Assembly: GCA_051362555.1 (NCBI GenBank)
Contig: CM120647.1
Span: 4,774,001-4,838,000, forward strand
Reading direction: 5' to 3'
From: Lingula anatina
Taxonomy: Eukaryota > Animalia > Brachiopoda
DNA length: 64,000 nucleotides
Position numbers and translations under genes: made by a program
Shown here: piece after piece, positions 6,329 to 39,840 of the stretch
How the letters are laid out: each line of letters opens with the position of its first letter
Numbering within the stretch: the first letter of the stretch is position 1
Notes under the pieces: generated by a model
Seen by the model: the letters and a program-made list of their open reading frames with translations, nothing else
Database searches by the model: none
What the model was told of the DNA's origin: nothing

Positions 6329-8264
6329 TCAGGGTACCACGAACGGGCTACAGACGTACTCAAACGTACTTGTCTGGCTTCCCAGGGTGAAAAAGCCAAA
6401 TATAATGCCAAATACTTGGATAGCAGGTGTGCACGCCACTGTTGGCGTCCAGCGTTTTTGCCTCGATTTGGGGTCACCGATGGAAGAGATCTCTGGCCCA
6501 AGAGCAGTCTTTGTTTCGCTTCTTGTTTTCCTAGATACAGACGCAGTCACCGGGGCACCATGTTGTCCTTGTATTGCTTCAGATGGAATGGAAACTGCAA
6601 AATAGGAAAAACAAAACAAATGTTGAACATAATGCTGCATAGAAGTTATCTCGCGTGGCTGAGGAGGAAAATCGCCTTTTTGTTGATGTAGGATATCAAC
6701 AAGAGGTGGAAATAGTTTGAATCCTCCACAAACACACACACGCATGCTCACGAACACGTCGCCCCCATCATGGTATAATAATCTTTCTGTGGCATGACAT
6801 ACATGTTCACTGTATAGACCTCACTTTATGGATGTGCCTGTGCCATGTGCCATGAGAGTGTTTCCATTCATTTTTTTTTTTTAGAAATAAAAAAAAAAAA
6901 AAAAAAAAATTTAAAAGGGGCAATTGTCATCCATTTATTTATTTTATTATTATCATCAGTGAACCTGAGTGTCTTCATGCGTACCTTCCCGTTTGCGTCT
7001 TCCAGGGAACCCTACAGAAAATATCGATGGTGTTCCGGTTCCCACAACGGCGCAAGTGTCTTCCGAACATGCCCAAACCGGAACTTGAAAGCTGAATTCA
7101 ACCGTCAGCTGACACACGAACACAACGACAGGCTAGAAAAGAAACGCATGCGCAGTAGCTAAATAGAAATCGGTAATTAAATGTATGCATTGGTTTTTAA
7201 ATCCCCTTTACAATGGACGGCGTCCTTTCTGCGTCCTTGCTACGACCATGAAACTGACATCGCTGTGGAGGAGGCACAAGCATTGCTTTGGCTGCATAAT
7301 GAAGGTTCAATGATAGATCAGTTGTGGGAACGTTAAGCAATACTGGTATTTTTTACTTTCAAACGCGTCCGTAAGTTACGGGACGCAGAAAGGACGCCGT
7401 CCAGTGTAAAGGGGGCTTAAAAAGATGTGTTGATAATAGACTGCATGATTCTACTATGAAGAGCTGCTGTAATTCCATCAGTGTTTATTTCTTTTACGTC
7501 TTATTGCTGAGCTTGCCGTTTATTAGACTGCATGAACAATAATTGCCCCATCCCCTCATTGCATGGGACGATGGCAGTTTGTGATTGAAAATAAGACCCC
7601 TAGAAATCGAGATATATATAGAAAAATCAAGGATACGAATAAAATAGATTTTTCTCTCCATTTTATTAAAAAATGCCCTACGGCCGTTTCGGCCCTGTGG
7701 CCTCGTCAGGGGTGCAAACAAAACAAAATACAAAAAAGACTCTGATTAAGTCTGATTATAATCCGAGTCTTTTTTATATTTTGTTTTGTTTGCGCCCCTG
7801 ACGAGGCCTCAGGGCCGAAACGGCTGTAGGGCATTTTTTAATGGAGAGAAAAGTCTAATTTATTCGTATCCTTGATTTTCTATACCAGCTCCCCACAGTC
7901 CGCTACCATGGGTGGAGCACTTTTTCATGGTGTATTGACTTTATTCTCCGATATATATGTATATATATATATATATCATGTTCTGAAATAAAGGCGCTTT
8001 AAGAAAGGTTGTGCACCTTGCAAGGCAAACTAAAACGGGTTCGAGTGTATAATTGCACAAATATCAAACCGAGCAACGGTTTTGTGTTTGTGATTCTGTG
8101 TGCATTGTGTTGATAACTGTGCTAACATACCAACAGAAATTCAACTAAGGAAGTTTCCAAGCCGAAACCGCTCAAACCAACGCAGTCGGCTGACCTGTTA
8201 CTGCAGTCTTGGTCGGTCGTGCAGGATGTTCCGGCAACTACAACAACAACAACAACAACAATTA

Positions 8265-8300
<36 letters not shown>

Positions 8301-8338
8301 TTATTGAGCACAGAAATGTTTAACATTTACATGTAAAG

Positions 8339-8408
<70 letters not shown>

Positions 8409-9697
8409 ATGATATTAAATAACGAAAATAAATATAGTGTTATGCAATATATTAGCAAGAAACCTGATAAATTCTGTGAAATGCTTATGTGCAGAGAAGA
8501 ATGAACAATAAGTGTAATTATGTCATGCTTTTCTTTAGCTAAACGATAGATGTCCCCACGTTAACATTTTAAATAACCAAAAAAGTTCACATTAAATTTT
8601 AACCCATTTAAATTAAAGACTCCACTCTGGTGTTGGACTTAGCTTTTTTCACATTTTAGTCCATATTTCTTGTTATAAGGAATGAGAACATAAGATTTCA
8701 ACAGCAAGACCACTCCAAGACAGAGTATACGACAGGGCCTAGCCAAAGTAACCAAATGACAAAATGCCTATCGATTTTTAGAACAAGTCATTGTCATATT
8801 TTCCGGCTTAATCACCAAGATACATAGATCCACACACAATTCGGGCTACTAAGTCCCCTGTTCCACGGCGACTTCGCATTCCAAGAGCCTTGGAATATTT
8901 TCAGTAAACAGTTACATATAGCAAGAATGACTTTGAAATATTTTACATTTTCTACCCTTTGAGGCACTCTAGAAATAAATACAGGGGACTTCCACTCATA
9001 ACAATAAATTTTACTGTTTAAAAAAATGCCAAAAATCACTCACTGGTCTGACACGTTCCATTCACCAAGGGGTAAGCTGTCAAAGGGCAGAGGCACACCT
9101 GGTTGGAGCCGGTGAAGATCGAGAACAGCGGGTTACGTGTGCACAGCGTGTTGTCCCCACAAGCCAGTGGTGGGTAAATAGCGGCAGTCGCCCCCGATGA
9201 ACATGCACTGAAGAGCCTTGTGCTGTTATCGCTTGTATAGCCTGGGAAGACAATGATGTACCTTTATTTGCAGTGACTATAACGACATTCAATTATATGC
9301 ACAGTAGGTACTTCGAAAAATAAACGTAACTGGGAATTGCGATGCTCTTTATATTTGGTAAAAAAAAAAAGGTTTATTTCACCCAAACCAGCAACATTTT
9401 TAAACTGCATAATGGATTTGCGATTGTCGTTATTAACATCTGAAACGTGGTGCATGAGATATGCTCAGATCAAAGTCAACATCATGAGCTGTAACCCCAA
9501 AATTAAATAACACTCTTAAAAACAGGCTTTGGTCACTGTAGAAACACAGCTTTCAGTTTGGTCATTACGCGACACAATTTGAATATCAGATTTTTTTCTT
9601 TTCTGTATCGTGGTGCTTATGAGTAATGATGGTGAAAGCGAAAGCGTGTGGATATTCCGCTGATCTTACCAGTAATAGGAGGTATAGTGACAGACAT
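6329..9697 (-). CDS. Uncharacterised Cys-rich precursor-like protein with three furin-type sites, copy A (248 aa)
   Basis: Exons 9670-9697(ATG), 9044-9241, 8131-8237, 6985-7132, 6329-6594, with the same splice sites and phases as copy B. All 14 Cys and RRKR/RKTR/RQKR are conserved. Coding indels are multiples of 3, and exon-3 substitutions are mostly synonymous in this frame. C-terminal peptide: WTPTVACTPAIQVFGIIFGFFTLGSQTSTFEYVCSPFVVP. Confidence 0.75.
7200..7417. mobile_element. ~220-bp MITE (CCCCTTTACACTGGACGGCGTCC family)
   Basis: Long TIRs. Other copies at 20132-20354, ~32657-32840 (decayed), and a left end at ~63295. Confidence 0.8.
7675..7715 (-). ncRNA. Minimal type-I hammerhead ribozyme (Penelope-type)
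   Basis: gcaccc-CUGACGA-GGCC-acag-GGCC-GAA-ACGGCCGU-A-gggc: complete catalytic core, stem II, palindromic stem/loop III, GUA cleavage triplet. Confidence 0.8.
7792..7832 (+). ncRNA. Minimal type-I hammerhead ribozyme (Penelope-type), inverted twin
   Basis: gcgccc-CUGACGA-GGCC-ucag-GGCC-GAA-ACGGCUGU-A-gggc. Confidence 0.78.
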
Positions 9698-9868
9698 GGC
9701 TCACCGCAAATTGTTGATCTGAAAAAAAAACGAAATAAAAACACGCTGCATATTAGCAATAAAAAACATTCAACAATGAAACGAAAAGAATGACAGTTTT
9801 AGTGTTATCATTATCTTTCAAAAACCCGGTGTGTACCGTGATGTATTGTCAAAAAATCTTCAACTTAC

Positions 9869-9953
9869 TTGTTAGCAGCCCTGCTGGTGAGTATATCCCT
9901 TTGTTTTGTTTGCTTCCTGAAGTCGTTTTTCCAGAGACACGCTAGCTTAAATA
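9869..9953 (-). promoter_or_regulatory. Putative TATA-like box and non-coding first exon of Cys-rich gene copy A
   Basis: TATTTAAG at 9946-9953 (minus strand), ~30 nt upstream of an Inr-like TTCAG, followed by a strong donor AA|gtaagt at 9869. Same arrangement in copy B. Confidence 0.45.
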
Positions 9954-10718
9954 CTGTAGAAGACGACTTAGCCGGTAAGCTTTTTTCATCTGATAGCATA
10001 CGTCGCGTACCGTGCAAGTTTATCAATTGTAAATCTGAGGTTTTGACTACGTTAATTGTAGTGGAGAAAACCCTTTAATCCTCGTCTGCCAAGTGCATCC
10101 TCTACAGTTATCACAATTCAGTCTGCATATACCAGTAATAAATAATCATTTTCGTTTCCGACAATAACTCTTGGACGTGGTAATGTTAGTAATAAACTGT
10201 AAACGATTCGTCTGACCCATTCGTGACTAGCATTTTCTGTCTTTTGTATTCTAATCAGAACATAACATCTGCCTAATATTAGGAGGAAATCGTGATAATC
10301 CCTGTGTCAATAAAAAATAACATACATATAATTTTAAAATGAGTGCCTTTTTCTCCTTTTATCAAAATCATAATAAATATATGTAAATAGATAAATAAAC
10401 GGCGAACTGATCTAAGAAAAGCACGGCAAATTTCCTTAACTTAGGTGCACATTTTGTTCCCCTTCAAAAGTGTTCTTTACGAGTTTCATTTTGGTCATAA
10501 ACGAAAAGTATCGACGTTCTTCGATATATTTATCCCAACTGCCGAACTCGAATACAGTTTTCCTTGTTTTTATTTAATTTTATTTGTTTTAAGACGGGTC
10601 CTGAGATATTCCACGTGGATCCGCAAACTTATGTAAACTATTCGCACGGTTCCCGACTAAAGATACGTGCAATTTACCGAAAAATGTTTTTTATCCATTA
10701 TCGCAGATTCATTTTTAA

Positions 10719-11557
10719 GAGCTTGTCCACGAGAGAAGCCCAGGGTGGCAATGTGGGGGTCAGCGGATTTCAACCAAATTTGTTGTATGGAGGCATATTA
10801 GGAAGTTATTCATGAGTTAGGAAGGAATCCCAAAAATATCTTTTCTTCAGAGAATTACAGCCTATTATAAGTCATGGCTTATGTGGCCTCTTTGAGACTC
10901 CATTTTTACCTTGGAAAAATAATGATAAATTTTGTGTAAATTAAACAAAAATGGAGAAGACTAAAAATATTAGACCTTACAAACATTGAAAACAATCATT
11001 TGGCTTGCCACAGATATATGTAGAGTTCAGATAAGACCCTGCTTGGGCGAGCCACACCCATTTATAACACCTCTCCCCCCAAAGTCCAATTTTGACACTA
11101 CCATCTTTAATTGCAGATATCTCCAAATTCACAGGGTTTACAGCTATAAAACTGCATGAATATTTTAGGCAGATATGGATCACTCCAAATCAAGTTTCAA
11201 AAGTTACTGCTGTATTAAAACAGGTACTGAAAAATGCCCCCAAAGTTGGCCATTTTTAAGGCAAAAAAATCGTGGTGGATTCATTCAAGTCTATGTAGAC
11301 AATGGGTTTGATTAATTTATTAAACCATTTTGCTCTACAATGATGTTACCAAATTAATAGGGCTGGTGAGCACGGAAAGTGGATGTGTACTAATGAATAT
11401 CAGGTCAGTGGGTCATAGGTCAAGGTCACTGGGCTTCATTTTTGTAAATTGTCATATATGTTCTTTTTCACTTGTATGAACAAAAAGTTAAGAGGAAATA
11501 AATCTTAGATTTTATTACTTTGGATAAGCACTTGCAATTAACTTGAGAGTTTACATG

Positions 11558-11616
<59 letters not shown>

Positions 11617-14600
11617 TCAATTCGGTGAATACAAATATCTTTGTTTAGTAAAGATTTCTTTTTGGTGCAATATTTATCATTAAGAGATCAGGATATGCCA
11701 TATGGTATTTATGAGATCAAAGCAGAACAAATCTTTTTTAAATTTTCAAAAGTTTTTTTTTCATCATCCACACCACTTTTTGGTGACTATTTATGAGCAA
11801 ACAGTAACTAAAAAATATTCAAATTAGTTTATTTTTGTCTCAGATGAATAATTACGAATAATAAAAAAATCACAAAATTATAATACAGCAATACATGCAA
11901 AGCAGTGCAACATTAGTTGTGATCATTACAACCTATATCATAATGTAGCAAAACAAGATAAATTTCTATTCAAAAAGCAAAACTAACACAACTGCAAAAT
12001 ATATCCTGGTGTTATGAAACATCTTAACAGTTTTATATCAAACATTAAAGCTCATAACATCAAAGTTTATAATACTGCCGATTTTTTCTTCCTGAATAGT
12101 CTGTAACCCTCCTTACTGACATTTCAATCTCATCTTCATGCTCACAAATGCTAGGTTCTGCTGGCCTGTTTCTTGTGCCCTTCTAAACTCCTTCAGTAAA
12201 AACTCCTTTACTTTATTTGAATATAGTTTCAAAGGTTTATATGACTTTAAAGCTCATCCATTGTGTAACTCAGTGGGATATTCAAGAGGGTGGAGTTCTC
12301 TCGGTATAGTCCCAGTTGGCACATTTACCTCAGAAAAACCCAAATTAACTTTAACATCAGTATCACTCATATTAAAACTGCTCAAGGAAAAGAGACACCT
12401 TTTCTCATGTTGTAGGAATCAAGAAAGCCAAATTGTTGTAATTGGACACTCCAGTCCACGCAGGTTTGGAAGATGTCTGTCTAGCTGGATGTAGAAAATG
12501 GCAGCAAAAGAGCACCCCTCCACTCCATCTGCAGAAACTAAGGCCTCATGCATCTCCTCAGCATTTGTTATATTGTGGCTTTCATTTACATACATGCCTT
12601 TCTACCACATCCGTCATTTCCACACTAGTTTCAGTTTCTGCAAGGCTTTGGACTCTTTTGCTGACCATAAGATCACTGTGTGTCAAATAACACCTCTCAA
12701 ATGTGCCTGAAATATAAATATAGCTTACTATAGACACATGAAAACACTTATCTCAAAGTTAATTGATACGTTGATGAAAAATAAATTATTATCCCATGTG
12801 TCGATGTTTTATAAGACATGGTTTCGAATTAGATTATGATGAGACTAGCAATTTTGCCAAGATCAGCCCTAGCTTCAATCTAATTCCAATTGTTACCCTT
12901 AGGCTCTGTTCTCACAACTTTTAGATCGATCTATCACCGCGGGGAGTCTCACTAGATTACTGTCAGATAATCCCCCTTAAGTGTCCGTCCCCGCCTACTA
13001 CAAGCTTTAAGGGGTATTTAACTTTCGTGTCCGCCCGGCTGACAGCTATTTAGCGTGAACCCCCAGGGAGTTAGGTCGATCCAATGTAGGTCGATCTAAT
13101 CTATGAGAATGGGATGATAGATTAGATCGACCTACATTGGATCGACCTAACTCCCTGGGGGTTCACGCTAAATAGCTGTCAGCCGGGCGGACACGAAAGT
13201 TAATTACCCCTTAGAGCTTGTAGTAGGCGGGGACGGTCACTTAAGGGGAATTATCTGACAGTAATCTAGTGAGACTCCCCGCGGTGATAGATCGATCTAA
13301 AAGTTGTGAGAACAGAGCCTATGAGAATGGGGTGTTAAATTTATTTTACCCAAATACCCTTAAACAAACCTAAATACATACACAATTATAGCTTAAAAGA
13401 TTATCACAGGTCCTTAGGCTGAAATTTCATTATTTGAAAGGGGGCATTTTTCTTTTAAAAAAGGAAAAAAATGGACCGTTTACCATTAAAAAATTGCACC
13501 TAGATCATTTTTCTGAATGACCTTTTTTCTGGCTTTTAGCCTGTATTAAAATACAAACAAACCCGTTTCTTACCTGAACCAAGTGGCACCAGTAGGCCTA
13601 TATTCAAATGGCTTTTTGTCTACACTGACATCTGCAAGTGAATCCCATGACATATTTCGTTATAGGCTCGTTTTTCCCTGTGTGGATGATTTCCAGCACA
13701 AACCAAGCCCATATCCCTATGCTGGACACATGGTGTAACCCATTCATTCTCCCAAAGATACTTGAAAATGTCCAATTGTGGTCATCGGAGACAAGAGTCC
13801 ACACCCGACAAGAATCAGTTTGCTTTCGTAACTCACGCTGTTTTGCTTCACGTAAACGCGACAAAGATGGCTGTTAATATCTCTGTTGCAATTTTTCAAT
13901 ACACTACATGTTTTTTCATATCTGTAGACAGAGTATAAACCACATGATATACGACTTCGGTGAGGAAGATTTGCAAAGGAACAGTCTGCGCTTTCCGCCA
14001 TGTTGGTTAATCGCGCTGTATTGTTCTGTCGTTAGTACATTAGTTTCACATGATTTTAAAATGTGTTAGATGCTTGTTTTAACCAGAAAAAAAATAGAAT
14101 AGGTAAAATGAAGATATAAAGCTCAACTAACAGTGTTTTAAACCATTTGTTGACTTGAAAGAGATAGCTGAAGTTTAGAGCACCGATAAATGTGTCCAGA
14201 TATATTTACGAAAAATGAAGAAATTAGGTCATGTTCTATCTCTTACAACGGACAAGTTGTAGAACAGCAGTAAGTTTTGATTTCATGTATAAATGGATTA
14301 ATGAGTTATCTGTTAGTCCTGAACACGCTTTTCCCCAAAGACCTGTGAAGATGAAGATATTGTCAAAAATAGAAGGGGGGTGTTCAAAGCATTTGGTTCG
14401 TAGCCCTGAGAAAAACGTTTAGTTTGTTACCATGGAATCAAAGAGGGTGAAAAAAGTGTATATCATTTTAATCCCCTATCTTTAGGTTATAACATATCAC
14501 CAAACTAAAGCATTAAGTGACACCTGTATAAACTGTAAAGCCAATCAATATAACCCTGTTTTTCAGATGAATTTTTGGTTGATTAACCCCCCAAATTGTG

Positions 14601-14760
14601 ACTGCCCATATCTCTGTAGGTAGGGATTTTTTTCAGGAAATATTGCAGCCTCAGATATTATTCATATAAAAGTTCAAACACACCAAATATGGTGTATATC
14701 CGTTCACCCCCGCCTTGCCGCATTTTCTACATTTGGTCTGGTTTTCTCGTGGACACACAC
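10719..14760. mobile_element. TTAA-target DNA transposon relic (Sola3- or Kolobok-like), copy-A specific
   Basis: TTAA TSD, with a single TTAA at the empty site ~37281. Imperfect TIRs GAGCTTGTCCACGAGA / TCTCGTGGACACACAC. Decayed spliced Cys-rich coding remnant on the minus strand (~14001-13574 and ~12707-12140). Superfamily is uncertain. Confidence 0.75.
12900..13321. repeat. Near-perfect ~420-bp palindrome (foldback)
   Basis: Arms ~12900-13104 and ~13117-13321 are reverse complements with only a few mismatches; spacer ~12 bp. Confidence 0.92.
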
Positions 14761-16083
14761 TTAAGTAAAGAAGGAAATGGATGTTGGTTATTTCATTGAT
14801 TCTGGTTTCTACTTTGCACGGTTATAATAATTTCCGACAAAAAAGATCAGCGAAATTACTTCTAAAACGTCGACGTTAACCAGTGACCCACGGCGGACGC
14901 AGTGTATCCATAGTAACAGCGCTTAATTTATTTCAATGGATCCATTTATCTGCGAACATTTTATGAATCAGGTTGTTGATTGGATAAAGCTAATAAAACT
15001 GTGCATTGTGAATTGTATCCACTTCCTGATCAGTAAATGAATAAACATTGTATTTTTGACAGATGCGTAACGTATATATAGCTCCATTCTGCTTGCAGGC
15101 ACATCAGAGGCTATACATTTGTGTGTGACTTAAAACTTATGTGATTTAATATCCACAGGTTGCTTCTGTGGTAACTACCCTCGTGACATTGAAGGAGAGG
15201 AAGTGTGTGCTGGTTTTCTATGTCAAAAATAGCTTGGCTCAATCCCAATCTAAAACTTCTCCCTCTCACGACCCCTCTCTGTTTCTCTGTCTCTCTCTCT
15301 CTATTCTATTCTATTCTAATTAGGTTATTGTAACATCTGTGTACAAACTAAAAATATTATATTCTGCCTTATTGTGTCTTTCATTTTTGAATATTTTGGG
15401 AAGCAACATACCTAAGACATTCATAGAACAATTACATAAGATGTGTACGTCATAAGTACTCTTAGATTTTTCATGAAGATACACTGTAATATTCCACATC
15501 AGCCCCCTTAGTCATCCTTAAAAAGCAAGGAACGCCTAGCCACCGTTTTTGTTTCCGCCACGCCTCCATCACGCTTCGCTTGCTTTGATGAAATCTCAAT
15601 CCTGTCGGTAACTACACTATGCCCCCCCCCACCCCCCGAAAAAAAAGTGCAAGCAGAATGGTGCACCCGGAATCTTATTGAGAAATACAGACAGGCCAGT
15701 AAAAACAGTGCCAGCAACCTTCCTCTTATCTCCATCATTAATTTATTTTCTCCATCATCAATGGATATATATTAATTAATTGGTTATATTTTTAGGTCCT
15801 TTGAAGATGAGTATACAATGCTTAAAGCGATTTACCATCAGATTCTTTATATGTTTATATTCATATACAATATTCATGAACTAATAAATATGTTAAAAAG
15901 GTGTTGTTATCACGATCGATCAACAGATATGCCTGGGGCATCCGAAAACTAAAGAAACTTGTACGCAGAATTAAAAAAAAAGTGTCTTTTATCCCCGTTT
16001 TCATTTATTTCTTACCGAAATGACGTGCACAATTATTTTCATCAGTAATGATTTCGACGACTACAACTGCAGATAATAATAAC

Positions 16084-16117
<34 letters not shown>

Positions 16118-17295
16118 TGTTTATTAGCATTTTTCATTATTTAATGTCTTGATTCCATGTTCAGTAGACAAATCTAACCAAGGCTTAAACATAAGACTGA
16201 TTATATGTACAATTAAAGTTTGACGTCTGAAATAATAATTTAACGTAAAATGTTAAAAAAAAAGTATTTAAAGTAAAACATTAAAAGTAATACAGTTACA
16301 AAAATCCAATATTTCTTTCATACAGTGCATTTTAAACATAAATAAATTATGCATAAAACATCTTAATTTTTGTTATCATTGTTGTACTGGGTTATGATGT
16401 TTGACCGATGCAGTTATACCTATCAGATTATAAAATGCAGTATGCGTTAAACTTAAATTTTAAATAAAATCCTAGCCAAAACTGGTAACCAGTGCAGCTG
16501 CTAGAAAATTGAAGTAATGTGTTAATTTTAAGGTGGAAAGACTGGAAGTCAGGGCTATATACTCTGCATGCGTTGTAATATTTAATCTTAACATGTGGAC
16601 ATCCATATAATACACAATTAAAAATTAAAGTTAACCAGCTTATAACTGCTGCTTGCATAAGTTGTATAAGTTGTAACGTATATATAGCTCCATTGATTCA
16701 CGTATTTCCTCACAATTTATTCCGAATATTGATTGATTGATTCACGTATTTCCTCACAATTTATTCCGAATATTGAATAAACGAGACTACCGGTAAATAA
16801 TGTTCGAGATCTGTTTTCAATTGAAAGTGAAGAATCAAAATAAAGCCCTGTTGTTTTCCTAAATAATAATAATAATAAATAAATAATAAATAATAAATAA
16901 TAGTAATAAAACCCTGTCACTCAGCGTTTTAAATGCCCCCTCTTTTAATCTAATTGTTTTATTTTAAAATAATTGAGAACGCCTCAGTATCAAACGCACT
17001 ATTTAAAAAAATATTTCAAGTATTACATTCAATAATCGGAAAAAGGTGTAAAATGTGATACTTTGATATTTCACAGTTGTCATTTCACGTCCGTAGAATA
17101 ATCCTTTATTTATTTTTTTTTTTTCATTTGTAGGTCGTTATTATATTTCTGACGCTACGGCCATCAGTCATGTACCCGCCAAGAAGCTGTAAAAAATTAC
17201 AATTCGGAAGTCACACGTTAGGAAGTGTCTTTCAAAGACCCTCTTCATCCTCAAAATGTACTTCCTTATCTGACTCGTCTGAGCGTTGTCTTTCT

Positions 17296-17482
17296 TAATA
17301 ATAATAATAATAATAATGATAATAATAATAAGATTCTTATATGGCGCCTTACATTCTATCTCAAGGCGCATTACAATAATGGCTAATATACTAAAATCAT
17401 TAAAATGACTACAATATTTAAATCATAAACTCTCATTGGAAACCATTTAAAATTTACACTACTAAAAATCAATCTTATTAAA

Positions 17483-17568
<86 letters not shown>

Positions 17569-18525
17569 AATAAAACTAAGAGATATACATGTAGACAGAA
17601 TTAAAAATGTGGGTCTTTAAAAGAGATTTAAAATTGTCAAAGTCTTCTGTTTTTCTAATAAAATTTGGTAGACCATTCCACTCTTTTGGGGCGTAGATTG
17701 TAAAAGCACGATCTCCATAACTTTTGAGGCACCCCTTCTCTAAAACAGAATGTTCTAAAATAAAATCATTTTCAGCATTAAAACGAGTGGACCGCCGTGG
17801 TAAGTTAAAACAGATAAGATCAGATAAATATAATGGTCCTTGTGAATGGATCGCCTTAAAAATAATACAAAGTACTTTAAAATCAATCCTCTGCTTCAAA
17901 GGCAGCCAGTGTAATTCTCTCAGAATGGGAGTGATATGGTGTGTACTATTGTACTTAATTTGACAAACCAGTCTTGCAGCTGAGTTTTGAATAACTTGTA
18001 ACTTTTTAATCTAATAGTCACAAATACCAAAGAGGAGACTATTGCAGTAATCTAATCTTGATGATATAAATGCATGTACTAATTTTTCAGTGGTTTTGTT
18101 ATCTAACACTTTCCTTATTTTTCCAATGCGCCATAGTGCATAAGATGCTGATTTACACACTTCAGATAGATTTTTTTATAAGAACATCTCCTATGCAAAT
18201 GTTGGCATTTGCTACATTTTTTCTATTTGCCTTGAACCTTGATGTAAACCATATCAACTCAGTCTTACTATCATTTAAAGCCAACATGTTCACTTTCATC
18301 CATTGTCGAATCTCTGCAAGACAAGTCTCCATAGAAGTGATTGTTGCAGACTGGCTGCTCTTGCATGTAATATATACTTGTGTGTCATCTGCAAAAATAA
18401 CAGTGTTCAGGCCATGCTTTAGTATGATATCTTCTACAGGTAACATGTATAATGAGAATAGGATCGGACCTAACACAGACCCTTGTGGGACACCATACTC
18501 CAAGTTAACTGGCTGAGATAAAAGC
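17296..18525 (-). mobile_element. 5'-truncated L2/CR1-group LINE, copy-A specific
   Basis: RT motifs GVPQGSVLGPILF and FADDTQ, plus ITPILRELHWLP, YGDRAF..APKEWNGLP and FKSLLKTH. Internal stop near 18012, (TTA)n tail. Absent at ~40080 in copy B. Confidence 0.9.
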
Positions 18526-18848
18526 TTCCTGATAATAATACTCCCCAGCATCAAGCTTCCTTTGCAATCTCGGAGGCAATTTCTTGTAAAATGGTGTTCC
18601 TAAAGTATAAAGTTTAACACGTTACATTATATGAATACGGGTCGTAGGTAGGTAATTTAAAATCATATTACCACAAAATGCGGCTTTTGAAGCAATAGAC
18701 TCAAATACCCATTTGCATAATTTGTTAAAGGGGGTTTATATTTGTTCCTGAAAAAATACTTTGGAGGCTCGCAGTAGAGGAGTTAATGCTTTAAGATTAA
18801 TATTATCTCCACTGCAATCAAATACACAAATACATATAACAATATCAA

Positions 18849-18970
18849 TTATTTAATACCTTTTATGCCCGTTGGAAGAAACTCGCCAGCATCTTTGACT
18901 CTCCCGTTTTCTTCAAAATGTGATTTCAGCTTTTTTAACGTGGTATTACATCTAAGTAGCTTCTTATTTC
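18849..18970 (-). pseudogene. Duplicated terminal exon of the HELZ2-like gene (frame intact)
   Basis: Encodes (G)[39 protein letters not shown]. Same 122-nt length and atttcag acceptor as 40521-40642. Confidence 0.85.
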
Positions 18971-20131
18971 CTGAAATTGAAATAAGTTACGACGTCATGG
19001 GAATCCTCATCTTTACGGCATATAAATATCCCTTCACGATGTTTTTCTTCAATGGAAGCGCTTTATGTGAAGCTACGTCTAGCTTCGATTTTGTTACAGT
19101 GTATTTTGAATCTGGCTTACTTCTACTTTACAATGTTATCCAACATTACAGTGAAAAAAAAGTGTTAAAATGATATTTTTTTTGCCAAATTGTCATAAAA
19201 CTATATTAAAAGAAAATTCATATCGCAGATAAAATAAAATTGTATAGCTTACTTTGTTTACATATTTTTTAATTTTTTTTTATTTTACTATTTTTATTTA
19301 TTTTTTTTATAAGCTAATCACAATCCGATTACCAAAATGCACTGCAGAAACATTTTCTCCCATTATTTCAATTTATTTCATCTCATCATACATGTATCTA
19401 TCTCCAAGAAAAATCTTGCTCAATTGCAATCAACTTAAGTGGCTTAGATGTTTGACACGCCTATACTGGGATGGGATCTGATGCCACAAGCGGATTCCAA
19501 TTGTTAAAATATTGCTGTTGCAGAAACACAACCAATTTATTGGAAAACATCGTGGCAGAATCAGGTCATTTGTTTACCCCTTGGCCAGACTAATAGAAAT
19601 GGGATTTATTTACCGATCATAATAAACATTTGGTTTTAACCCTAAAGTTTTGTCATGTAAGTCTGAAAATGATGAAAGAAAGCTGTGTGATCAGGACCCG
19701 GTTTCACACAAAAAAAGGTTCCCTGGATAAGAACCTTATTGCCAAGGTAACATGGTCACAGAAACACATCTTACCGTATCAGGAGTAGTTTTACAACACA
19801 CTCATGGAAATCCTAGCCAACTAAGCCAGGAACCTGACCATTCTACCAGGAGGTCAATACAGGAGAAAGACTCTCTAATAAAGAAACACAGTTGGTCTTT
19901 GGTATGCAATATTGCTTCTGCAAAGTTAATTTATTAATATCAGTATTTATACATGCCCACGCTAAACCCATCGTTTCTTAGCCGCTCGCTTGCCATGTAA
20001 TGTGTATTGCCATGTGTATTGTAGGTATACTTTTAAATCATGTAAATCTAATACAACATTGATTAATAGTTAATCGCAGGCCTCTGATTGGTCACGTCTC
20101 ACTGGACTCTATTCTTTTTTGAGTCCCCATA

Positions 20132-20354
20132 TACCCCCTTTACACTGGACGGCGTCCTTTCTGCGTCCTTTCTGCGACCATGAAATTTGGCAACGCTGTG
20201 GTATTAAAAAGGAGGCGCAAGCATTGATTTTGTATCAGAATGAATGCTCAATGATCGGCCAGTTGTCGGCACGTAAAGTATTATAATTTTTTAACTCTCA
20301 AATGGGGCCGTACTGCTGGACGCAGAAAGGACGCCGTCCAGTGTAAAGGGGGCT
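20132..20354. mobile_element. ~220-bp MITE (same family as 7200-7417)
   Basis: TIRs CCCCCTTTACACTGGACGGCGTCCTTTCTGCGTCC and its reverse complement. Absent from the duplicate segment at ~23690. Confidence 0.85.
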
Positions 20355-20450
20355 TAAGTCCTGTACACCGTTTGTTGCATATCGCACCTGAATGTACATG
20401 TTTACAATGTATCATGTTGATTCAATACAGCCTCGATTATTATACATATA

Positions 20451-21343
20451 CACTCTTGCCCAAAATGGTTGGTACACGGAAAGTTTGGGATGCACATCGC
20501 CCTGTTTCTTTCATTTTTATTGATATTATCAAATCAATACTGTTTATATTGTTAAATATGTGAAGCTGGATGATTGGTAAAGTCAAGGAGAAACAAACAA
20601 TGCACATGTGAAAAAAGCGTTAATTTATTTAGGTTTTTTTTTCTTATGCCCCCAAAAGAGTACTTTTTTTTACATAACAGTACCAAGTGAAAAATTAAAC
20701 ATAAATTTATACTGTGATTTACAATTAATACGAAATTAGGGGAAATTGACAAGAAACATCTTCAGAGTTCATTATTAATCTAAATAGCGGGTATGCCCAC
20801 CCCGAGCTTGGATAATGGCCGCCAGACGGCGTGACATAATGTGAACTAGAGTTACACCTTTTTGGAAAGGAATTCTGGTCCATTCATCTTCAAGGGCATC
20901 TCGCAGTTCATCTAGATTTGCAGGGGAAGGGTTTCTCCTCTGAATAGCACGACCAAGTTCGTCCCACATGTGCTCAATTGGGTTTGCATCTCGGCTTCTT
21001 GCTGGCTGTGGCATCAGCTGAATGTTGTTTTGTCGCATATAGTCTGCAATTAAGCGGGCTTTGTGGGGAGTTGGGTTGTCATGTTGCAATCTAAAATTGT
21101 CTCTGTATATCCCTCTTCCGAACGGCTCCAGGTTCTACTGGAGAATGTCTCTGTATCTGGCAGCGTTAAGGTTTTCATCCAAAGGAGGCATTGGGCAAAT
21201 ACCGTTGCTGCAAATGGCACCCCAAACATGTACAGAACCACCTCCTCCAGCTATTGTTTCCTGAATATTTTCAGTTAATAGCCTCTCCCCAGGGTGCCTA
21301 CGCACTCTCATAGCTGGAGGAGGTGGTTCTGTACATGTTTGGG
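20451..21343 (-). mobile_element. Tc1/mariner transposon 3' fragment
   Basis: QHDNPTPH...PARSRDANPIEHMWDEL...ARGGHTRY (DD34E-type C-terminus). Terminus TA|CACTCTTGCCCAAAA at 20451. Frameshifted upstream. Confidence 0.88.
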
Positions 21344-21810
21344 TGAAATTAAAATAAGTTACGACGTCACGGGAATCTTCATCTTTACGGCATATTAATC
21401 TCCCTTCACGATGTTTGTCTTCAATGGAAGCGCTTTATGTGAAGCTACGTCTAGCTTCGATTTTGTTACAGTGTATTTTGAATCTGGGTTACTTCTACTT
21501 TACAATGTTATCCAACATTACAGTGAAAAAAAGGGTTAAAATGATATTTTTTTGCCAAATTGTCATAAAACTATATTAAAAGAAAATTTATATCGCAGAT
21601 AAAATAAAATTGTATAGCTTACTTTGTTTTCATATTTTTTTAATTTTTTTTTTTATTATTTTTATTTATCTTTTTTTATAAGCTAATCACAATCCGATTA
21701 CCAAAATGCACTGCAGATACATTTTCTCCCATTATTTCAATTTATTTCATCTCATCATATTTCCAAATGTAATTCTATTTTGGTTAAGAGAATATGGTAC
21801 TTGTAATTAC

Positions 21811-21969
21811 CATTGATAATCAGGAATCTTCTTGGGCGAGTAAGTGCCACGTTAATCTGATGGTCATCTGTTATAAAGCCAAGGTTGACTTTACACCAGC
21901 CCTTAGTCGGCCTTTGCACAATCTGGTACTATGGGATAGAGCGGACGGTGCTGATGTCCTATTCCCCAC
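21811..21969 (-). pseudogene. Duplicated penultimate HELZ2-like exon, inactivated
   Basis: Copy of 41088-41255 with TGG->TAG (GE*D) and a 9-bp deletion; it still encodes [17 protein letters not shown]. Confidence 0.85.
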
Positions 21970-22864
21970 CTGGTGGAATTAAAAAAAATACGAACGCATT
22001 GTACATGAATCAAGGGATTTCAAAAAGCCAGTGATCGCGTTTGTAGTCAGCTAATGTAACAGACGATTCACATTGCTTTTACCGGCGCACTAAGACTGGG
22101 CTAACAGGATCGATCCATCTCCGGAGGGTTTCTCGCTAAATTGCTTTCAGTTTAAGTGGCCTAGATGTCTGACACGCCTATTGAATCTGCTAAACGATAA
22201 TTAATTACCCCCTAGCAGCTTCAGTATAGGCGTGTCAAACATCTAAGCCACTTAAGTTGATTGCAATTGAGCAAGATTTTTCTTGGAGATAGATAGATCC
22301 ATAGTTAGTGCGATAGGGTGTCTGAAGTGGTCGATAATATGGGTGACGGAGTGCTTGTTCTGGAGTCGGTGGCGGTGGTATTTGTTTTCTTAATCTTTGC
22401 CGTTGACATTTACAAAAACTGAATCTACATGAAGCTAGAAGTCTTCAGAGGCCACAGACCGCATCAGCAATAAGATAATGTTGTTCGCAACCTTTAACAT
22501 ACTGCCTATTAAAGCGCACTGATGTCTAATGTAAGTCTGGTGGAGTGTTTGACCTGTGTCAATGCTATTGTGACAGGAACGGTAGTCCGCTAGGGAAAGT
22601 ACTTAATCTGCCGCCCATTACCTTTTACGGGTGGCATAAGCCCTATATGTTAACCCTACTAAATGTTTGCAACAACGAGTTTAAGGGAAAAATCTGTTGC
22701 TGCTGATTTGCAGCCAAATTGTGTCACACTTACTGCAAATTTGCAAGAAATAATTGCAGTTTACAGCAATATTGCAGCCTATGTTACTAAAGAAAGAGGT
22801 GTGTATTTGACAATGTTATGTTGGTAATGAAATGGTTGAGATAACTACAACTTTATTATTATTA

Positions 22865-22922
<58 letters not shown>

Positions 22923-30317: not shown

Positions 30318-30793
30318 CCGGCGTCCCACATGCTAGGGTCAGTCTGAAGTAACGGGTTGAGTTAGAGGGCGAATATCACAGGTATAAAGTAACATTGAAC
30401 GGGCTACTATTCCTTTACTCGGAGTCAGCTACCGCTGTTCCTGTCACATTATGTATGAATGTGTTCAAATAAGCCAACCGTACGATCCGATCAAAATGCC
30501 ACATTTTATTATTTACCAATGTATGATCATAACCCTTCACACATCGACAGAAATTTGCGTTTTGAAATAATACACTGTCCAAAGCAATGTGCCCAATAAT
30601 TTCTTCTGAAAATTGAATCTACCAACATTTATGAAATCATCAAATGTTAACTATCCTGTCAGCAAGAAAAAAAAAAAAAAAAAACGCATCGAAGTCCTGG
30701 TAACATGCGCCAATAGCTGTGGCTGAGCATCGAGTTGATCCTATGTCCTTTTGACTGTCTTAAATGATTGACGGGTATTGTGATATCTGGCTT

Positions 30794-31199
30794 TTAAGAA
30801 GGTGCGAACGAACTACAGACGTACGTATTTGTCTGGCTTGTAAAAAAGCTTACTATAAAGCCCCATACTTGGACAGCAGGTGTGCACGCCACTGTTGGCG
30901 TCCAGCGTTTTTGCCTCGATTTGGAGTCACCGACGGAAGAGATCTCCGGCCCAAGAGCAGTCTCTGATTCGCTTCTTGTTTTCCTGGATACAGACGCAGT
31001 TATCGGGGCACCATGATCTTCTTTTATCGCTTCAGATGGGATAGAAACTGCAGAAAAGGAAAACAAAACAAAGAGTGAAAATAATGCTGCATGGAGGAGA
31101 TCTCGTGTGGCTGATGAGATCTCGCGTGGTTGAGGAGGTAAACCGACGTTTTGTTGATACAGGATATCAACAATAGGTGAAAATAGTTTGAAATCTCCA

Positions 31200-31242
<43 letters not shown>

Positions 31243-33393
31243 TTCGTCCCCGTCATGGTGAAATAAACTTTTCGCTATGACATACACTGTATAGGCTTTA
31301 ACCTTGTGAATGTGCCATGGATTCGCTGAAAGTGTTTCCAATCATTTTTTGAAAAAAAAAAAACAAACAAACTGATTAAAAAAAAAAAGAACAATCAGGG
31401 GAAGAAAAGTATGCTGTATTTTGAAATACTACCATTTTACCTACAGCATGCAAAGAACATCTCACACGTAATTGTCATCCAATCCCCATTGTTATATATA
31501 GGTAGTCTTATTATGAGTGAACCTGGGCTCGGAATCTCGAAAGGTTCGCTATGTTGCGCACGCGCTATAGCATAGCTAGCGTGCGCTATTTGCTAGTGCG
31601 ATTGCACCCACCTGCTATCTCGAAGCCTTAGCAGACGCAACGCAATTATAACCTCAAACTCTACTAATATTCGATTGCCGCATTAAGTGAAGACGTCATA
31701 ACACAATTACACAAAATGCAATTTTTTTCACCATGACGCAAATCAAGAGGTTGTTTTTATTTATAGGAATTACAAATACTGATATTTGAAGTATTTGACA
31801 CCAATAAAATGTCAAAAAACAATTCAATAAGCGAAGCTTGGACTGACACAATTACTGACACAATGGTGAGTAGTGTTCAGTCTCACAATAATAGACATTG
31901 AGGAAGGTCACGGTGCGGCCGAATGCTTTGTTTCTGCTTTTTCATTTTGTGTGGAAAATGACACTTTTAAATTTATTATTATTATCAATAGACTACACAG
32001 ATGAATGAAATTCACCAGAAAATATAAAATGATGTATGAAATGTTTAATTTTGAAATTTTTCTGCATAATAAAATATGACTTTGGCATTCTTCACGTGAA
32101 TATTTACCGCAAGTTTTTCTATCAGAGGTACCAGTGATTCAATCAATTAAAAGCTTCCATGTTTTTGTTATATGTTTTATTATATGCTATTATGACTAGC
32201 AACCCAAACTTGCCACCATGTTTAATTACATGAAAGACACATTAAAATGACGAATTTTGCATACGCAGAGGCCTTTGCGATCAGTTTGATACGCCGCAAA
32301 TAATAGCCTCGAAACTAATGGCGATTTGGACATTAGCGCACGGCCGGGATTTGCGAAGCTACGGGATAGCGCACGCTGGCCATGCTAGAGCGTGTGCGCA
32401 ACATAGCGAACCTTTCGAGATTCCGAGCCCTGAGTGTCTTCATGCGTACCTTCCCGTTTGCGTCTTCCAGGGAACCCTCCAGAAAATATCGACGGTGCCC
32501 CGATTCCCACGACGGCGCAAGTGTTTCCCGTGCAGGTCCACACCGGGACTTGAAAGCTGAATTCAACAGTAAGCTGACACACAAACACAACAACGGGCTG
32601 GAAAAGAAACGCATGAACTAAATAGCGATCAAATCAAATTTATGCATTGGTCTTAAAACCCCTTTATAATGGACGGCGTTCTTTTTGCGCGCTTTGTGCG
32701 TATTGCCTTGGTTGCAACATAAATGCTTAATGATGGCACAACTGTCGGCACGTAATTAAGAAATTATTAGTATTTTTTTTTACTCTCAAACCGGGCTGTA
32801 CTACGATACGCAGAAAGGGCGCCGCCCAGCGTGAAGAGGAATGGGGGGGGGGGGTAATAAAATATTATGTGTTGATAATGCATGAGCTGAGAGGAGCTGC
32901 TGTAATTCCATTAGTGTTTATTTATTTTATGGTTTACTGCCGATCTTGCCGTTGATAAGACTGAACAATATTTGCTCAATCCAGACGTGGGAAATCGATA
33001 AGGTGGTGAGTGAGTTCCATCGACTTTCACTCTTCTTCTACAATAAAAGTTATTTTTTAAGTTCTGAAAAAAAAGGCGCTTAAAAAAGGTTGCGCACCTT
33101 GTAAGGCAAACGAAAACGGGTTCGAGTGTACAGTTGCATGAATACATGTAGCAAACCGTGTGCAACAGTTTTGTGATTGTGATTCTGTGTGCATGATGTT
33201 GATAACTGTGCTAACATACCAACAGAAATTCAACTAAGGAAGTTTCCAATCCGAAACCGCTCAAACCAACGCAGTCGGCTGACCTGTTACTGCAGTCTTG
33301 GTCGGTCGTGCAGGATGTTCCGGCAACTATAATACAAATAATAGTAATAAATAATCGAGCACAGAAAAGTTTTACATTAAAATGCTCTCTAAG

Positions 33394-33473
<80 letters not shown>

Positions 33474-36241
33474 AAAGAAAAAGAAGAACAGCAACTTTCT
33501 TGCCCCGACCGGTTTCTTTCTTTCTTCAGGGGGTTTTGTTTATTTGTTACTAGGTGATGTCATAAAGGCTTAAATGTGACGTCTTTAACAATGAGTGTTT
33601 AATTGTTACTTTTACCAATGCTTTTATCTATTCAATGTAGGTTTATACTTATTAATGAATAGATTTTCTTTTATTTCCCTTTCTGTTTGGGTTGTTTCCC
33701 TGGTGAATTTATAAAATGAGAATACCGTAAAATCCTTGTTTTTGTTCATAGGGCATTCCCTAATGTGCCCACTCACAGACGTGCACTGATATTTAGGTTG
33801 TCTTATTTGTTGTCTGTGAACGGTCATTCTATGTCGGAGAGTGTCTCCAGTTTGTCCTATATAGTTCTCACCGCATCCACTGCAAGTTAATACATAGATT
33901 AAATTTGAGCTGGTGCAGGTGAATGGGTGTTTGATTCTGAATGTAAGTCCATTTTTAAATGTTATATGGCCCCCCTCTTTAATTAGTGGACAGGTGCCAC
34001 ACCTGGGTACCTCACATTTCTGTACTCGTATTGTTGAGGTTTCCACATATGTCCTGGAATTGTTTTCAAATTTTGCTTTTGTTAAAATTTGCTTTAGTGA
34101 TGGACTTTGTCTCTTACTCTTTATAATCTGCATTTCGGTTAGTATCTCATTCATTTTGTCATCTTGTTTTACCAAAGGTAAGTTTCCAGTTATGACCTTA
34201 TGTATTTCCGGATTTTTTGGATTATATGTTGATATGTACGGTATGGCTTCCTTTTTAATTTGAATTTTGTCTTTGGTGGTCCTCAGGTCGTTCTTCGGTA
34301 TCTGTTTTGCCTTTTTAATCCCAGTTTGTATCAGTTGTCCTGGGTATTGTCTCCTTAATAGGAATCCTTCCAGCTCTTTGAGCCTTTGTTTTAATGTGGT
34401 TTCATTTGAGACAATTGTGCATAGTCTTCGAGCTAGATTGTATGGTATGTTGTGCTTAATGTGCCTGGGATGACACGAGTTAAAAGGGAGATATTGTTTT
34501 GTGTCTGTTGTTTTGTAATACACATCTGTCTCAATTTTTCCTTTTACACTCATTACCATAACATCGAGGAATGGGAGTTGTGTTGAACTTGAATCCATCG
34601 TAAAATGTAAAGAGGGATGTAGGTTGTTGAGGATCAGGTTGAAATCTTCCAATTCATTTTCTGTTTTGTCCCAAATTATAAAACAGTCATCAAGGAAACG
34701 TTTCCATGTGTTTTCTAATTGATTCCTAAATTCGACTCCAAACCGTTCTTCGCATCTTTTGTAAAGGCCTTTTTCGATGTATCCTAAGACAAGTGTAGTG
34801 TAAGTGGGGGCTACTTTTGTACCCATTGCATTATATATATATATTAAATCAACAATGTAGTGCTATACAATATACATTAGCAAGAAAATAATAAAATACA
34901 AGTAAAATCCTGTGAAACGTTTGTTATGTGCAGAGAAGAATGAACGTTAGGTGTAACTTATGTTATGTTTATCTTGAGCCCCCGCGTAAACCTTTTAATT
35001 TACACGCAATTTCACAATTTAGTTTAACCCATTTAAATTAAATTAAAATAAGAGATTTGTTTATCTCCACTCTGGTGTTGGACGTATCTTTTTTTTTTTT
35101 TTACATCAGTCTATATTTCGTGTCATAAGGAATGAGAACATGAAACAAGATTTCAACTCCAAGATATACCAGGGTATGCGAAAGGGTCTCCCCCAAGTAA
35201 CCAAATTACGAAATGCCTGTTAATTTTTAGAAAAAACATCACTGTCATATTTTCCGGCCTTAATCAGCAAGTTACATGGAAACCATAGTTCTACGCATAA
35301 TTCGGACTACTTAGCCCCCTAATTCCCAGTGTCTATGCATTCCAAGAACCCCATAAGAATTTACAAAAATAGAAGTAGAAAAATAAAAACAGATATTGTG
35401 GAATTTGCACATTCTTCTTGAACAGTACGAATGTTTTCAAGAAACATCTACAATTTAAAACTAATGACTTAGGAATATTTACATTTCCCAACCTTTGAGG
35501 CACTCTCGAAATAAATACAGTAGCGATTGCGACTTCCACTCATAACAGTGTAAAGTAAATATAACTATAAAAATGCCAAAAATCACTCACTAGTTTGACA
35601 TGTTCCATTCACCAAGGGGTAAGCTGTCAAAGGACAGAGACACAACTGGTTGGAGCCGGTGAAGATCGAGAACAGCGGGTTTCGTGTGCACAGCGTATTG
35701 TCCCCACAAGCCAGTGGCGGGAAAATAGCGGCCGATGAACAAGCACTGAAGAGACTTGTGCTGTTATCGCTTGTATAACCTGGAAATATAATGATGTACC
35801 TTTATCTGCAGTAATTATAACGGCATTCAATTATCTGCACAGTAGGTACTTCGAAATATAAACGTAACTGGGAATTGCGATGTTCTTTATATTTGGTTTT
35901 AAAAAATCGGTTTATTTCACCCAAACCACGAACATTTTTAAACCGGATAATGGATTTGCGATTGTCGTTATTAACATCTGAAACGTGGTGCATGAGATAT
36001 GCTCAGACCAAAGTCAACATCATGAGCTGTATCCCCAAAAATAAATAACACTCTTAAAAACAGGCTCTGGTCACTGTAGAAACACAGCTTTCAGTTTCGT
36101 CATTACGCGACACAATTTGAGTATCAGATTTTTTATTTTCTGTATCGTGGTGCTTATGAGTAATGGTGGTGAAAGCGAATAGCGTGTGGGTATTCCACTG
36201 ATCTTACCAGCAATAGGAGGTATAGTGACAGCCATGGCCAT
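30794..36241 (-). CDS. Uncharacterised Cys-rich precursor-like protein with three furin-type sites, copy B (243 aa)
   Basis: Exons 36208-36241(ATG), 35591-35779, 33220-33326, 32450-32597, 30794-31047, all GT-AG and phase-matched (1,1,0,1). Translation: MAMAVTIPPIAGYTSDNSTSLFSACSSAAIFPPLACGDNTLCTRNPLFSIFTGSNQLCLCPLTAYPLVNGTCQTIAGTSCTTDQDCSNRSADCVGLSGFGLETSLVEFLLPVVVFVCQLTVEFSFQVPVWTCTGNTCAVVGIGAPSIFSGGFPGRRKREVSIPSEAIKEDHGAPITASVSRKTRSESETALGPEISSVGDSKSRQKRWTPTVACTPAVQVWGFIVSFFTSQTNTYVCSSFAPS. A putative non-coding first exon ends at donor 36427. Confidence 0.75.
31526..32429. mobile_element. ~900-bp MITE with CTG target duplication, copy-B specific (intron of the Cys-rich gene)
   Basis: TIR GGCTCGGAATCTCGAAAGGTTCGCTATGTTGCGCAC and its reverse complement. 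CTG on both sides; single CTG at the empty site ~6965. Confidence 0.85.
33471..34830 (-). mobile_element. 5'-truncated Penelope-like retroelement (RT C-terminal half + GIY-YIG endonuclease)
   Basis: 400-aa ORF 33624-34826: AMGTKVAP, WKRFLDDCF, LPFLDV, SCHPRH, NLIYVLTC..CGENYIGQTG..LRHRMTVHR, YKPTLN. Inserted in a (TA)n tract that is uninterrupted in copy A (8341-8404). Confidence 0.93.
33503..33533 (-). ncRNA. Degenerate/minimal hammerhead motif at the Penelope 3' end
   Basis: cccc-CUGAAGA-aagaaa-GAA-ACCGGU-C-gggg: core and stems I/III are present, stem II is unpaired. Confidence 0.55.

Positions 36242-37799: not shown

Positions 37800-37834
<35 letters not shown>

Positions 37835-38501: not shown

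Positions 38502-38543
<42 letters not shown>

Positions 38544-39638: not shown

Positions 39639-39687
<49 letters not shown>

Positions 39688-39776: not shown

Positions 39777-39840
<64 letters not shown>

What the first reader, a model, noticed from the sequence alone, without database searches (positions are those of the whole stretch)
6329..36241. Hidden tandem gene pair encoding a Cys-rich, furin-processable precursor that would release a diverging hydrophobic disulfide-loop peptide
Seen: two paralogous five-coding-exon genes (A 9697->6329, B 36241->30794) that the ORF track misses. Both keep identical splice sites and phases, 14 conserved Cys, N-glycosylation sequons (NST, NGT, NRS) and frame-preserving indels. 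Layout: 6-Cys EB/EGF-like module, second 6-Cys module with a hydrophobic insert, FPG-RRKR, spacer, RKTR, spacer, RQKR, then a 36-40 aa almost uncharged peptide with one Cys pair. Established: R-X-K/R-R is the furin consensus (RKTR fits only the minimal R-X-X-R), and Gly before a basic site is an amidation signal. Inference: a polyprotein precursor for defence, toxin, adhesive or gamete-recognition peptides. I do not recognise the family.
Basis: partly seen in the sequence, partly recalled or inferred. Interest (0 to 1): 0.85.

Follow-up and report, generated by a model that had tools for sequence, protein, structure and literature searches.

The report
Signal-less convertase-site protein family in Lingula
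Two real, duplicated genes of the lamp shell Lingula belong to an unstudied family of cysteine-rich proteins that carry enzyme cutting motifs typical of secreted precursors yet have no standard secretion signal, and they are likely cut into a conserved water-repelling core and a small, faster-changing tail.

Summary
The two genes are real. Both models splice GT-AG in the same phases, encode 248 and 243 residues with 14 Cys each, and evolve under purifying selection (dN/dS 0.28). They are not wholly hidden: gene B matches RefSeq Lingula anatina XP_013408241.1 at 242 of 243 residues; A was not found in the collection. They belong to an uncharacterized family of 23 RefSeq loci, seen only in Lingula, with no Pfam, PDB or fold match. 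R-x-[KR]-R sites occur in 11 of 18 representatives, 9 of 11 after Gly, so convertase cleavage is likely. The conserved product is the 12-Cys core (dN/dS 0.15, in every member); the tail is neutral or acidic, faster-evolving, not shown to be positively selected, and absent from a six-member clade. And no member shows an N-terminal signal peptide, so the route into the secretory pathway is unexplained. Best reading: an internally targeted extracellular proprotein whose cleavage frees a core with disulfide-pinned hydrophobic helices. No junction reads were found in 8 RNA runs. Role untested.

The parts
6329..9953 (-). Gene A, whole span from TATA-like box to stop (248 aa; not found in the protein collection)
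   Evidence: only P0001 returned for A exon 3; A is 85% identical to P0001 and P0002
9869..9953 (-). Gene A TATA-like box (9953-9946) and non-coding exon 1 ending at donor 9869; 5' end inferred
   Evidence: no ATG between the box and the start codon
9670..9718 (-). Gene A exon 2: 21 nt of leader with an in-frame stop two codons before ATG 9697, then 9 codons; no signal peptide
9044..9241 (-). Gene A exon 3: module 1, six Cys with EB/EGF-like spacing and a hydrophobic 15-residue loop between Cys3 and Cys4
   Evidence: EB likeness is a lead only (scores 0.80-0.81)
8131..8237 (-). Gene A exon 4: first half of module 2 and start of the hydrophobic helix; 1 difference in 107 nt from B
6985..7132 (-). 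Gene A exon 5: rest of module 2, then Gly-RRKR at 7003-6989
6329..6594 (-). Gene A exon 6: spacer with RKTR, RQKR at 6463-6452, 40-residue hydrophobic Cys-loop tail 6451-6332, stop
30794..36511 (-). Gene B, whole span from TATA-like box to stop (243 aa; RefSeq LOC106172170 with one substitution)
36427..36511 (-). Gene B TATA-like box and non-coding exon 1 ending at donor 36427; 5' end inferred
36208..36248 (-). Gene B exon 2 (ATG 36241); no signal peptide
35591..35779 (-). Gene B exon 3: module 1
33220..33326 (-). Gene B exon 4
32450..32597 (-). Gene B exon 5, Gly-RRKR at 32468-32454
30794..31047 (-). Gene B exon 6: spacer, RQKR at 30916-30905, 36-residue Cys-loop tail 30904-30797, stop
5749..22831 (.). 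Segmental duplicate of 30362-41943: gene plus upstream intergenic DNA plus part of the 3' end of the neighbouring HELZ2-like gene

Best explanation
These are two tandem copies of a Lingula gene family encoding a 12-cysteine core followed by two basic cleavage motifs and a hydrophobic cysteine-looped tail, and they likely act as extracellular proproteins whose main product is the core, predicted to be cut free by a furin-type convertase. Shown: gene structure, purifying selection, family, conserved motifs, no N-terminal signal peptide. Inferred step 1 (about 0.5): the protein enters the ER through an uncleaved internal hydrophobic segment, most likely the helix at residues 103-123. Inferred step 2 (about 0.75 if step 1 or another route holds): cleavage at G-RRKR and RQKR removes a polar 45-residue spacer and may amidate the core. 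Inferred step 3 (about 0.4): the freed core uses two disulfide-pinned hydrophobic segments to bind lipid or assemble on a hydrophobic surface such as a cuticle, coat or membrane, and the tail is an accessory piece that shields those segments until cleavage, as the external hydrophobic patch does in ZP proteins.
For: Core: 11 of 12 Cys invariant in 25 of 25 aligned proteins, the 12th in 90% or more; dN/dS 0.15; the only part AlphaFold2 models with pLDDT about 60-90, with helices at 48-52 and 103-118, repeated in a second model. Both hydrophobic loops are in 18 of 18 rows (best 11-residue Kyte-Doolittle 0.7-2.1 and 1.2-2.6). R-x-[KR]-R in 11 of 17 rows against 0.43 expected, 0 of 2000 shuffles (rows are kin, so this is one inherited trait, not 11 tests). 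P0004 sits inside the clade with sites, lacks the whole site-spacer-site block and keeps the tail (27.7 bits, 0 of 300 shuffles), which marks the spacer as the dispensable piece. An internal signal 109 codons from the start moved both flanks into microsomes in an engineered protein, the N-terminal flank only in part (PMC2113988, abstract). EHP/IHP locking released by furin-site cleavage is described for ZP proteins (PMC8391237, passages).
Against: No signal peptide in 27 of 27 rows by a hydrophobicity heuristic (best 8-residue window in the first 30 residues 0.8-2.0; first Cys at residue 9-28); SignalP was not available. The proposed internal signal is short or broken by charges in several paralogs (19-residue maximum 1.34-2.03). 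Sequons are not enriched. The tail stays under pLDDT 50 even when directly tethered in the P0004 model, so packing on the core is not shown. A six-member clade has no convertase motif at all. No exon junction of either gene was listed in 8 RNA runs. No tissue, proteome or functional data were found.
Confidence: 0.4

Rival explanations
1. The released tail peptide is the effector (defence, toxin or signalling), and the core is its chaperone, as BRICHOS domains are for polychaete antimicrobial peptides.
For: A second site lies directly before the tail in 9 of 11 rows with sites. Non-synonymous divergence is higher in the tail than the core (0.168 against 0.036, Fisher p 0.0005). The tail is a predicted helix inside a Cys loop. 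Nicomicin is a 33-residue hydrophobic one-disulfide peptide cut from a 239-residue precursor with an acidic proregion (PMC6265681, passages).
Against: Tail loops have charge 0 to -4 in 12 of 12 rows, whereas nicomicin is cationic and has a signal sequence. dN/dS 0.53 (CI 0.2-1.5) does not show positive selection. P0005 and P0007 lack the second site, P0004 lacks both, and 6 of 18 rows have no tail loop. Gly before the first site would amidate the core, which fits a product rather than a discarded prodomain.
Confidence: 0.22
2. The protein is membrane-anchored by the 103-123 helix (signal-anchor), with the C-terminal part in the lumen, where convertase sheds the tail as in ITM2B/BRI2 (recalled).
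For: This explains ER entry without a signal peptide. The 19-residue Kyte-Doolittle maximum is 2.03 in A and B. Both sites lie C-terminal of the helix.
Against: It would split the 12 conserved Cys across the membrane, while both models fold the residues before and after the helix into one unit. There are no flanking basic residues, and paralogs put Arg, Gln or Asp in or beside the segment.
Confidence: 0.15
3. The proteins leave the cell by a non-classical route (holocrine or apocrine release), oxidise outside and are cut by an extracellular protease; or they stay cytosolic and bind metal, the basic motifs having another use.
For: No signal peptide in 27 of 27 rows and no sequon enrichment; 6 of 18 rows lack the motifs.
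Against: Cys spacing in module 1 resembles extracellular EB/EGF modules (lead only); G-R[RK]KR is the amidation-plus-cleavage motif of the secretory pathway (established knowledge); even Cys counts in 26 of 27 rows.
Confidence: 0.15
4. The gene models miss a 5' signal-peptide exon, and these are ordinary secreted precursors.
For: No junction reads were seen here; only A and B could be checked at DNA level.
Against: A has an in-frame stop two codons before its ATG in the same exon; the leaders of A and B differ by a non-triplet length; there is no ATG between the TATA-like box and the start in either copy; the open frame upstream in B is polar. RefSeq models of 23 loci all start without a signal sequence.
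Confidence: 0.08

Closest known systems
RefSeq Lingula anatina uncharacterized proteins LOC106172170 (XP_013408241.1/2), LOC106154477 and 21 further loci
   Same: Gene B is LOC106172170 at 242 of 243 residues; all share the 12-Cys core.
ZP-domain proteins (furin site, external and internal hydrophobic patch)
   Same: Cys-rich core with a hydrophobic patch, then a furin site, then a C-terminal hydrophobic element (PMC8391237, passages).
   Different: No ZP domain hit, no signal sequence, no C-terminal transmembrane helix; analogy of logic only.
BRICHOS-type peptide precursors (nicomicin, arenicin)
   Same: About 240 residues, acidic proregion, convertase site, C-terminal hydrophobic peptide of 33-40 residues with one disulfide (PMC6265681, passages).
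   Different: No BRICHOS hit in 25 of 25 proteins; 12 core Cys; no signal sequence; the tail is neutral or acidic and its disulfide spans 22-26 residues rather than 6.
EB domain (PF01683) / EGF-like / Dumpy DPY modules
   Same: Module 1 has six Cys with C-x-C and an 11-residue last loop; Atlas features rank EB clusters first (0.80-0.81); weak structural likeness to Pfs25 EGF domains (Z 2.7, rmsd 3.6, 51 aligned).
   Different: No Pfam EB hit at E up to 1 in 25 of 25; EGF in 2 of 25 at E 0.26; a 15-residue hydrophobic loop lies between Cys3 and Cys4; module 2 has a different spacing.

Membership tests
Convertase-processed secretory proprotein | R-x-[KR]-R sites at conserved positions between domains | tested here: met
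   11 of 18 rows; 9 of 11 with two sites bounding a polar spacer
Convertase-processed secretory proprotein | Cleavable N-terminal signal peptide | tested here: not met
   27 of 27 rows lack an N-terminal hydrophobic stretch by heuristic; upstream extension excluded for A; SignalP not available
Convertase-processed secretory proprotein | Cleavage and secretion shown on protein | not testable with these tools
   needs proteomics or expression
EB domain (PF01683) proteins | Match to the Pfam EB model | tested here: not met
   0 of 25 at E up to 1; also 0 of 2 at E up to 10
EB domain (PF01683) proteins | EB/EGF-type fold and disulfide pattern | tested here: inconclusive
   best Z 3.5 and 2.7, no Foldseek E under 0.001; disulfides not reported by the tool
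BRICHOS-related antimicrobial peptide precursors | BRICHOS domain in the proregion | tested here: not met
   no BRICHOS hit in 25 of 25
BRICHOS-related antimicrobial peptide precursors | Cationic mature peptide | tested here: not met
   loop charge 0 to -4 in 12 of 12; whole tails -7 to +4, A -1, B 0
ZP-domain proteins | ZP domain of about 270 residues and C-terminal transmembrane helix | tested here: not met
   core about 150 residues, no ZP hit
Inhibitor cystine knot toxins | Knottin fold | tested here: inconclusive
   module 1 aligns to small knotted peptides at Z 2.0-3.5 only (2mw7 Z 3.5, rmsd 1.7, 37 aligned), below the level the tool calls meaningful
Rapidly evolving gamete-recognition proteins | dN/dS above 1 in the mature product | tested here: inconclusive
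   core 0.15 (not met); tail 0.53, CI 0.2-1.5, one paralog pair only
Lingula shell matrix proteins | Listed in a shell proteome | tested here: inconclusive
   6 RefSeq accessions absent from the supplement of PMC13425148, which may use other ids; PMC4595640 tables use other gene ids and give no sequences in the passages seen

The most novel reading that the evidence does not exclude
A whole gene family that is secreted without a signal peptide: one disulfide-pinned hydrophobic helix serves first as an uncleaved internal ER signal that brings both flanks into the lumen and then as the membrane- or surface-binding element of a new fold, kept capped by a convertase-released hydrophobic loop.
Probability: 0.2. 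Interest if true: 0.75.

Novelty: new variant of a known kind. Interest (0 to 1): 0.45.

Why it matters
Secretome screens filter on signal peptides, so a family of 23 loci with amidation and furin motifs but no leader would be missed systematically. If secreted, it gives a natural, multi-member test of internal signal sequences, and a candidate new hydrophobic surface or membrane protein from a phylum with almost no characterised secreted peptides. If not, it is one more lineage-restricted uncharacterized family. It has no known link to a major open question yet.

Tried and rejected
Expression: 8 of 9 listed RNA runs were laid, 6-30% of each read. Gene A at 90% likeness: no depth on its exons in 4 of 4 runs, only repeat-derived partial reads. 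Gene B at 82%: no junction of the gene listed in 4 of 4 runs (threshold 3 reads); trace depth of 0.1-0.8 in exon-holding bins in X18 and X19, the two runs that did show HELZ2-like junctions. Tissues are unknown, so this is inconclusive. No RNA holder was listed in the index. Core-plus-tail complex prediction gave no answer (score 0.00; alignments not used). Pfam, PDB sequence, Foldseek and VIA-align on two models and Atlas gave no significant family; a missing match does not show a new fold. No longer or fused relatives at 535-2000 residues (weak evidence). Internal repeat between modules or loops: not found by hhalign, 6 of 6 comparisons under 1% probability. Homology of the tail to the C-terminal ends of the six-member clade: not supported (160-300 of 300 shuffles as high); between close and distant tails only weak. 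Sequon enrichment rejected. P0012 (repetitive, E 7e-5) dropped as unrelated; P0025 (short isoform) left out of alignments. The bacterial promoter scan is not applicable. No genome was held, so paralog exon structure, including that of P0004, is unchecked. Earlier findings of this scan: none in 3 look-ups.
Full report
Observation. I rebuilt both genes from the window. A has coding exons 9697-9670, 9241-9044, 8237-8131, 7132-6985, 6594-6329 (248 aa); B has 36241-36208, 35779-35591, 33326-33220, 32597-32450, 31047-30794 (243 aa). All introns are GT-AG with phases 1,1,0,1, each protein has 14 Cys, and 211 of 241 aligned codons give the same residue. dN/dS is 0.28 (bootstrap CI 0.17-0.46), so the frames are under purifying selection. 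The pair lies in a segmental duplication, 5749-22831 against 30362-41943. No third copy is in the window. Each gene has a non-coding first exon 85 nt below a TATA-like box.

Identity. Exon 3 of A found one protein, RefSeq Lingula anatina LOC106154477. Its cluster mate XP_013408241.1/2 equals gene B at 242 of 243 residues, so an independent annotation gives the same splice model. Gene A is 85% identical to both and was not returned. A full phmmer scan of 1.84 billion representatives gave 10 hits, 9 of them Lingula proteins of this family and 1 repetitive protein that I dropped. A profile search added more. In all there are 23 RefSeq loci in 16 clusters at 90% identity; several close pairs on different scaffolds may be alleles. 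All are named uncharacterized. No other species appeared, but other brachiopods and phoronids may be poorly represented, and only a single sequence, not a profile, was run on the full library.

Anatomy. The core of about 150 residues has 12 Cys, 11 invariant in 25 of 25 aligned proteins. It holds two hydrophobic loops closed by Cys, present in 18 of 18 representatives. AlphaFold2 models only this core with moderate confidence (mean pLDDT 53.8, pTM 0.46; core blocks about 60-90), with helices at 48-52 and 103-118 and a terminal hairpin; a second model led by P0004 agrees (60.4, 0.55). Neither model, nor Pfam, PDB sequence search or the Atlas, gave a significant family. EB/EGF likeness of module 1 rests on spacing and sub-threshold leads.

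Processing motifs. R-x-[KR]-R follows the core in 11 of 18 representatives; 9 of 11 have Gly before it and 9 of 11 have a second site just before the tail. By established knowledge this is the convertase motif, and Gly before it allows amidation; here that would amidate the core. The middle R-x-x-R is kept in 6 of 7 close paralogs. The tree splits a 12-row clade with tails from a 6-row clade with neither sites nor tail loop (support 100/99). P0004 lies in the first clade, lacks sites and spacer, and keeps the tail (27.7 bits, 0 of 300 shuffles); its gene model could not be checked.

Which piece matters. dN/dS is 0.15 in the core, 0.56 in the spacer and 0.53 in the tail (CI 0.2-1.5); the tail has more replacements than the core (p 0.0005) but no shown positive selection. 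Tail loops carry charge 0 to -4 in 12 of 12 rows. The core is therefore the likely main product. Gene conversion may affect these values: the 800 nt upstream differ by only 1.7% while 3' introns differ by 14-20%.

The paradox. None of 27 rows shows an N-terminal signal peptide by a hydrophobicity heuristic; the first Cys lies at residue 9-28. A missed 5' exon is unlikely for these two genes: A has an in-frame stop two codons before the ATG, the leaders differ by a non-triplet length, and no ATG lies between the TATA-like box and the start. Sequons are not enriched (36 against 32.3). The strongest hydrophobic stretch is the helix at 103-123. An engineered internal signal 109 codons from the start translocated both flanks, the N-terminal one in part (PMC2113988, abstract), so internal targeting is possible but untested here.

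Mechanism. I commit, at 0.4, to an internally targeted extracellular proprotein: convertase cleavage removes the spacer and frees a core whose hydrophobic segments bind lipid or assemble on a surface, with the tail as shield, by analogy with the hydrophobic-patch lock of ZP proteins (PMC8391237, passages). Against it, the tail does not fold onto the core even in the tethered P0004 model. The rivals are a released effector tail as in nicomicin (PMC6265681, passages; 0.22), a signal-anchored form (0.15), non-classical export or a cytosolic role (0.15) and a missed exon (0.08).

Expression. No junction of either gene was listed in 8 of 9 RNA runs laid; trace depth fell in exon bins of B in two runs.

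Literature. Ten searches were made; five of them aimed at Lingula or the loci listed no paper on this family, judged from listings only. From PMC4595640 I read the abstract, section 11 and supplement passages: its shell-protein tables use other ids, so membership is undecided. In PMC13425148 I searched only the supplement for 6 accessions, with 0 hits. Subscription papers and bioRxiv supplements were not searchable and may bear on this.

Verdict. A real, partly annotated, undescribed Lingula family with convertase-type architecture and an unexplained lack of a signal peptide: a new variant of a known kind, interest 0.45.

Noticed in passing
window about 39850 to at least 51046, minus strand: HELZ2-like gene (OB_HELZ2, RNB, AAA_11/AAA_12 hits); three introns seen as RNA joints at 40150/40531, 42189/42692, 42962/43218 in X18 and X19.
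   Followed up: partly
window 16412-22831: Partial duplicate of the 3' end of the HELZ2-like gene, 81-90% identical, broken up by insertions.
   Followed up: partly
window 33624-34862, minus strand: 412-codon open frame with a GIY-YIG domain inside intron 3 of gene B, absent from A; Penelope-like retroelement is a recalled label.
   Followed up: partly
window 31525-32430: Insertion of about 900 nt in the last intron of gene B, 20 nt from the donor, bounded by 65-nt inverted repeats at 94% identity; looks like a non-autonomous DNA transposon.
   Followed up: no
window 9870-10700 against 36428-37266: Upstream DNA of A and B differs by 1.7%, and exon 4 by 1 of 107 nt, against 14-20% in the 3' introns: possible gene conversion or strong promoter constraint.
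   Followed up: partly
P0004 (LOC106155957): The only family member lacking the whole site-spacer-site block while keeping the tail; also the most basic (+6 against mostly -1 to -14).
   Followed up: partly
P0005, P0006, P0007; P0010, P0020: Three paralogs share one scaffold length (279432), suggesting another tandem cluster; two 'isoforms' of LOC106175117 differ throughout and may be two merged genes.
   Followed up: no
window 2943-3716: Tandem and partly inverted repeat array of about 100-nt units.
   Followed up: no
window 17576-18599 and 20775-21434, minus strand: Open frames resembling a LINE reverse transcriptase end and a Tc1/mariner transposase fragment (labels recalled, not scanned).
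   Followed up: no
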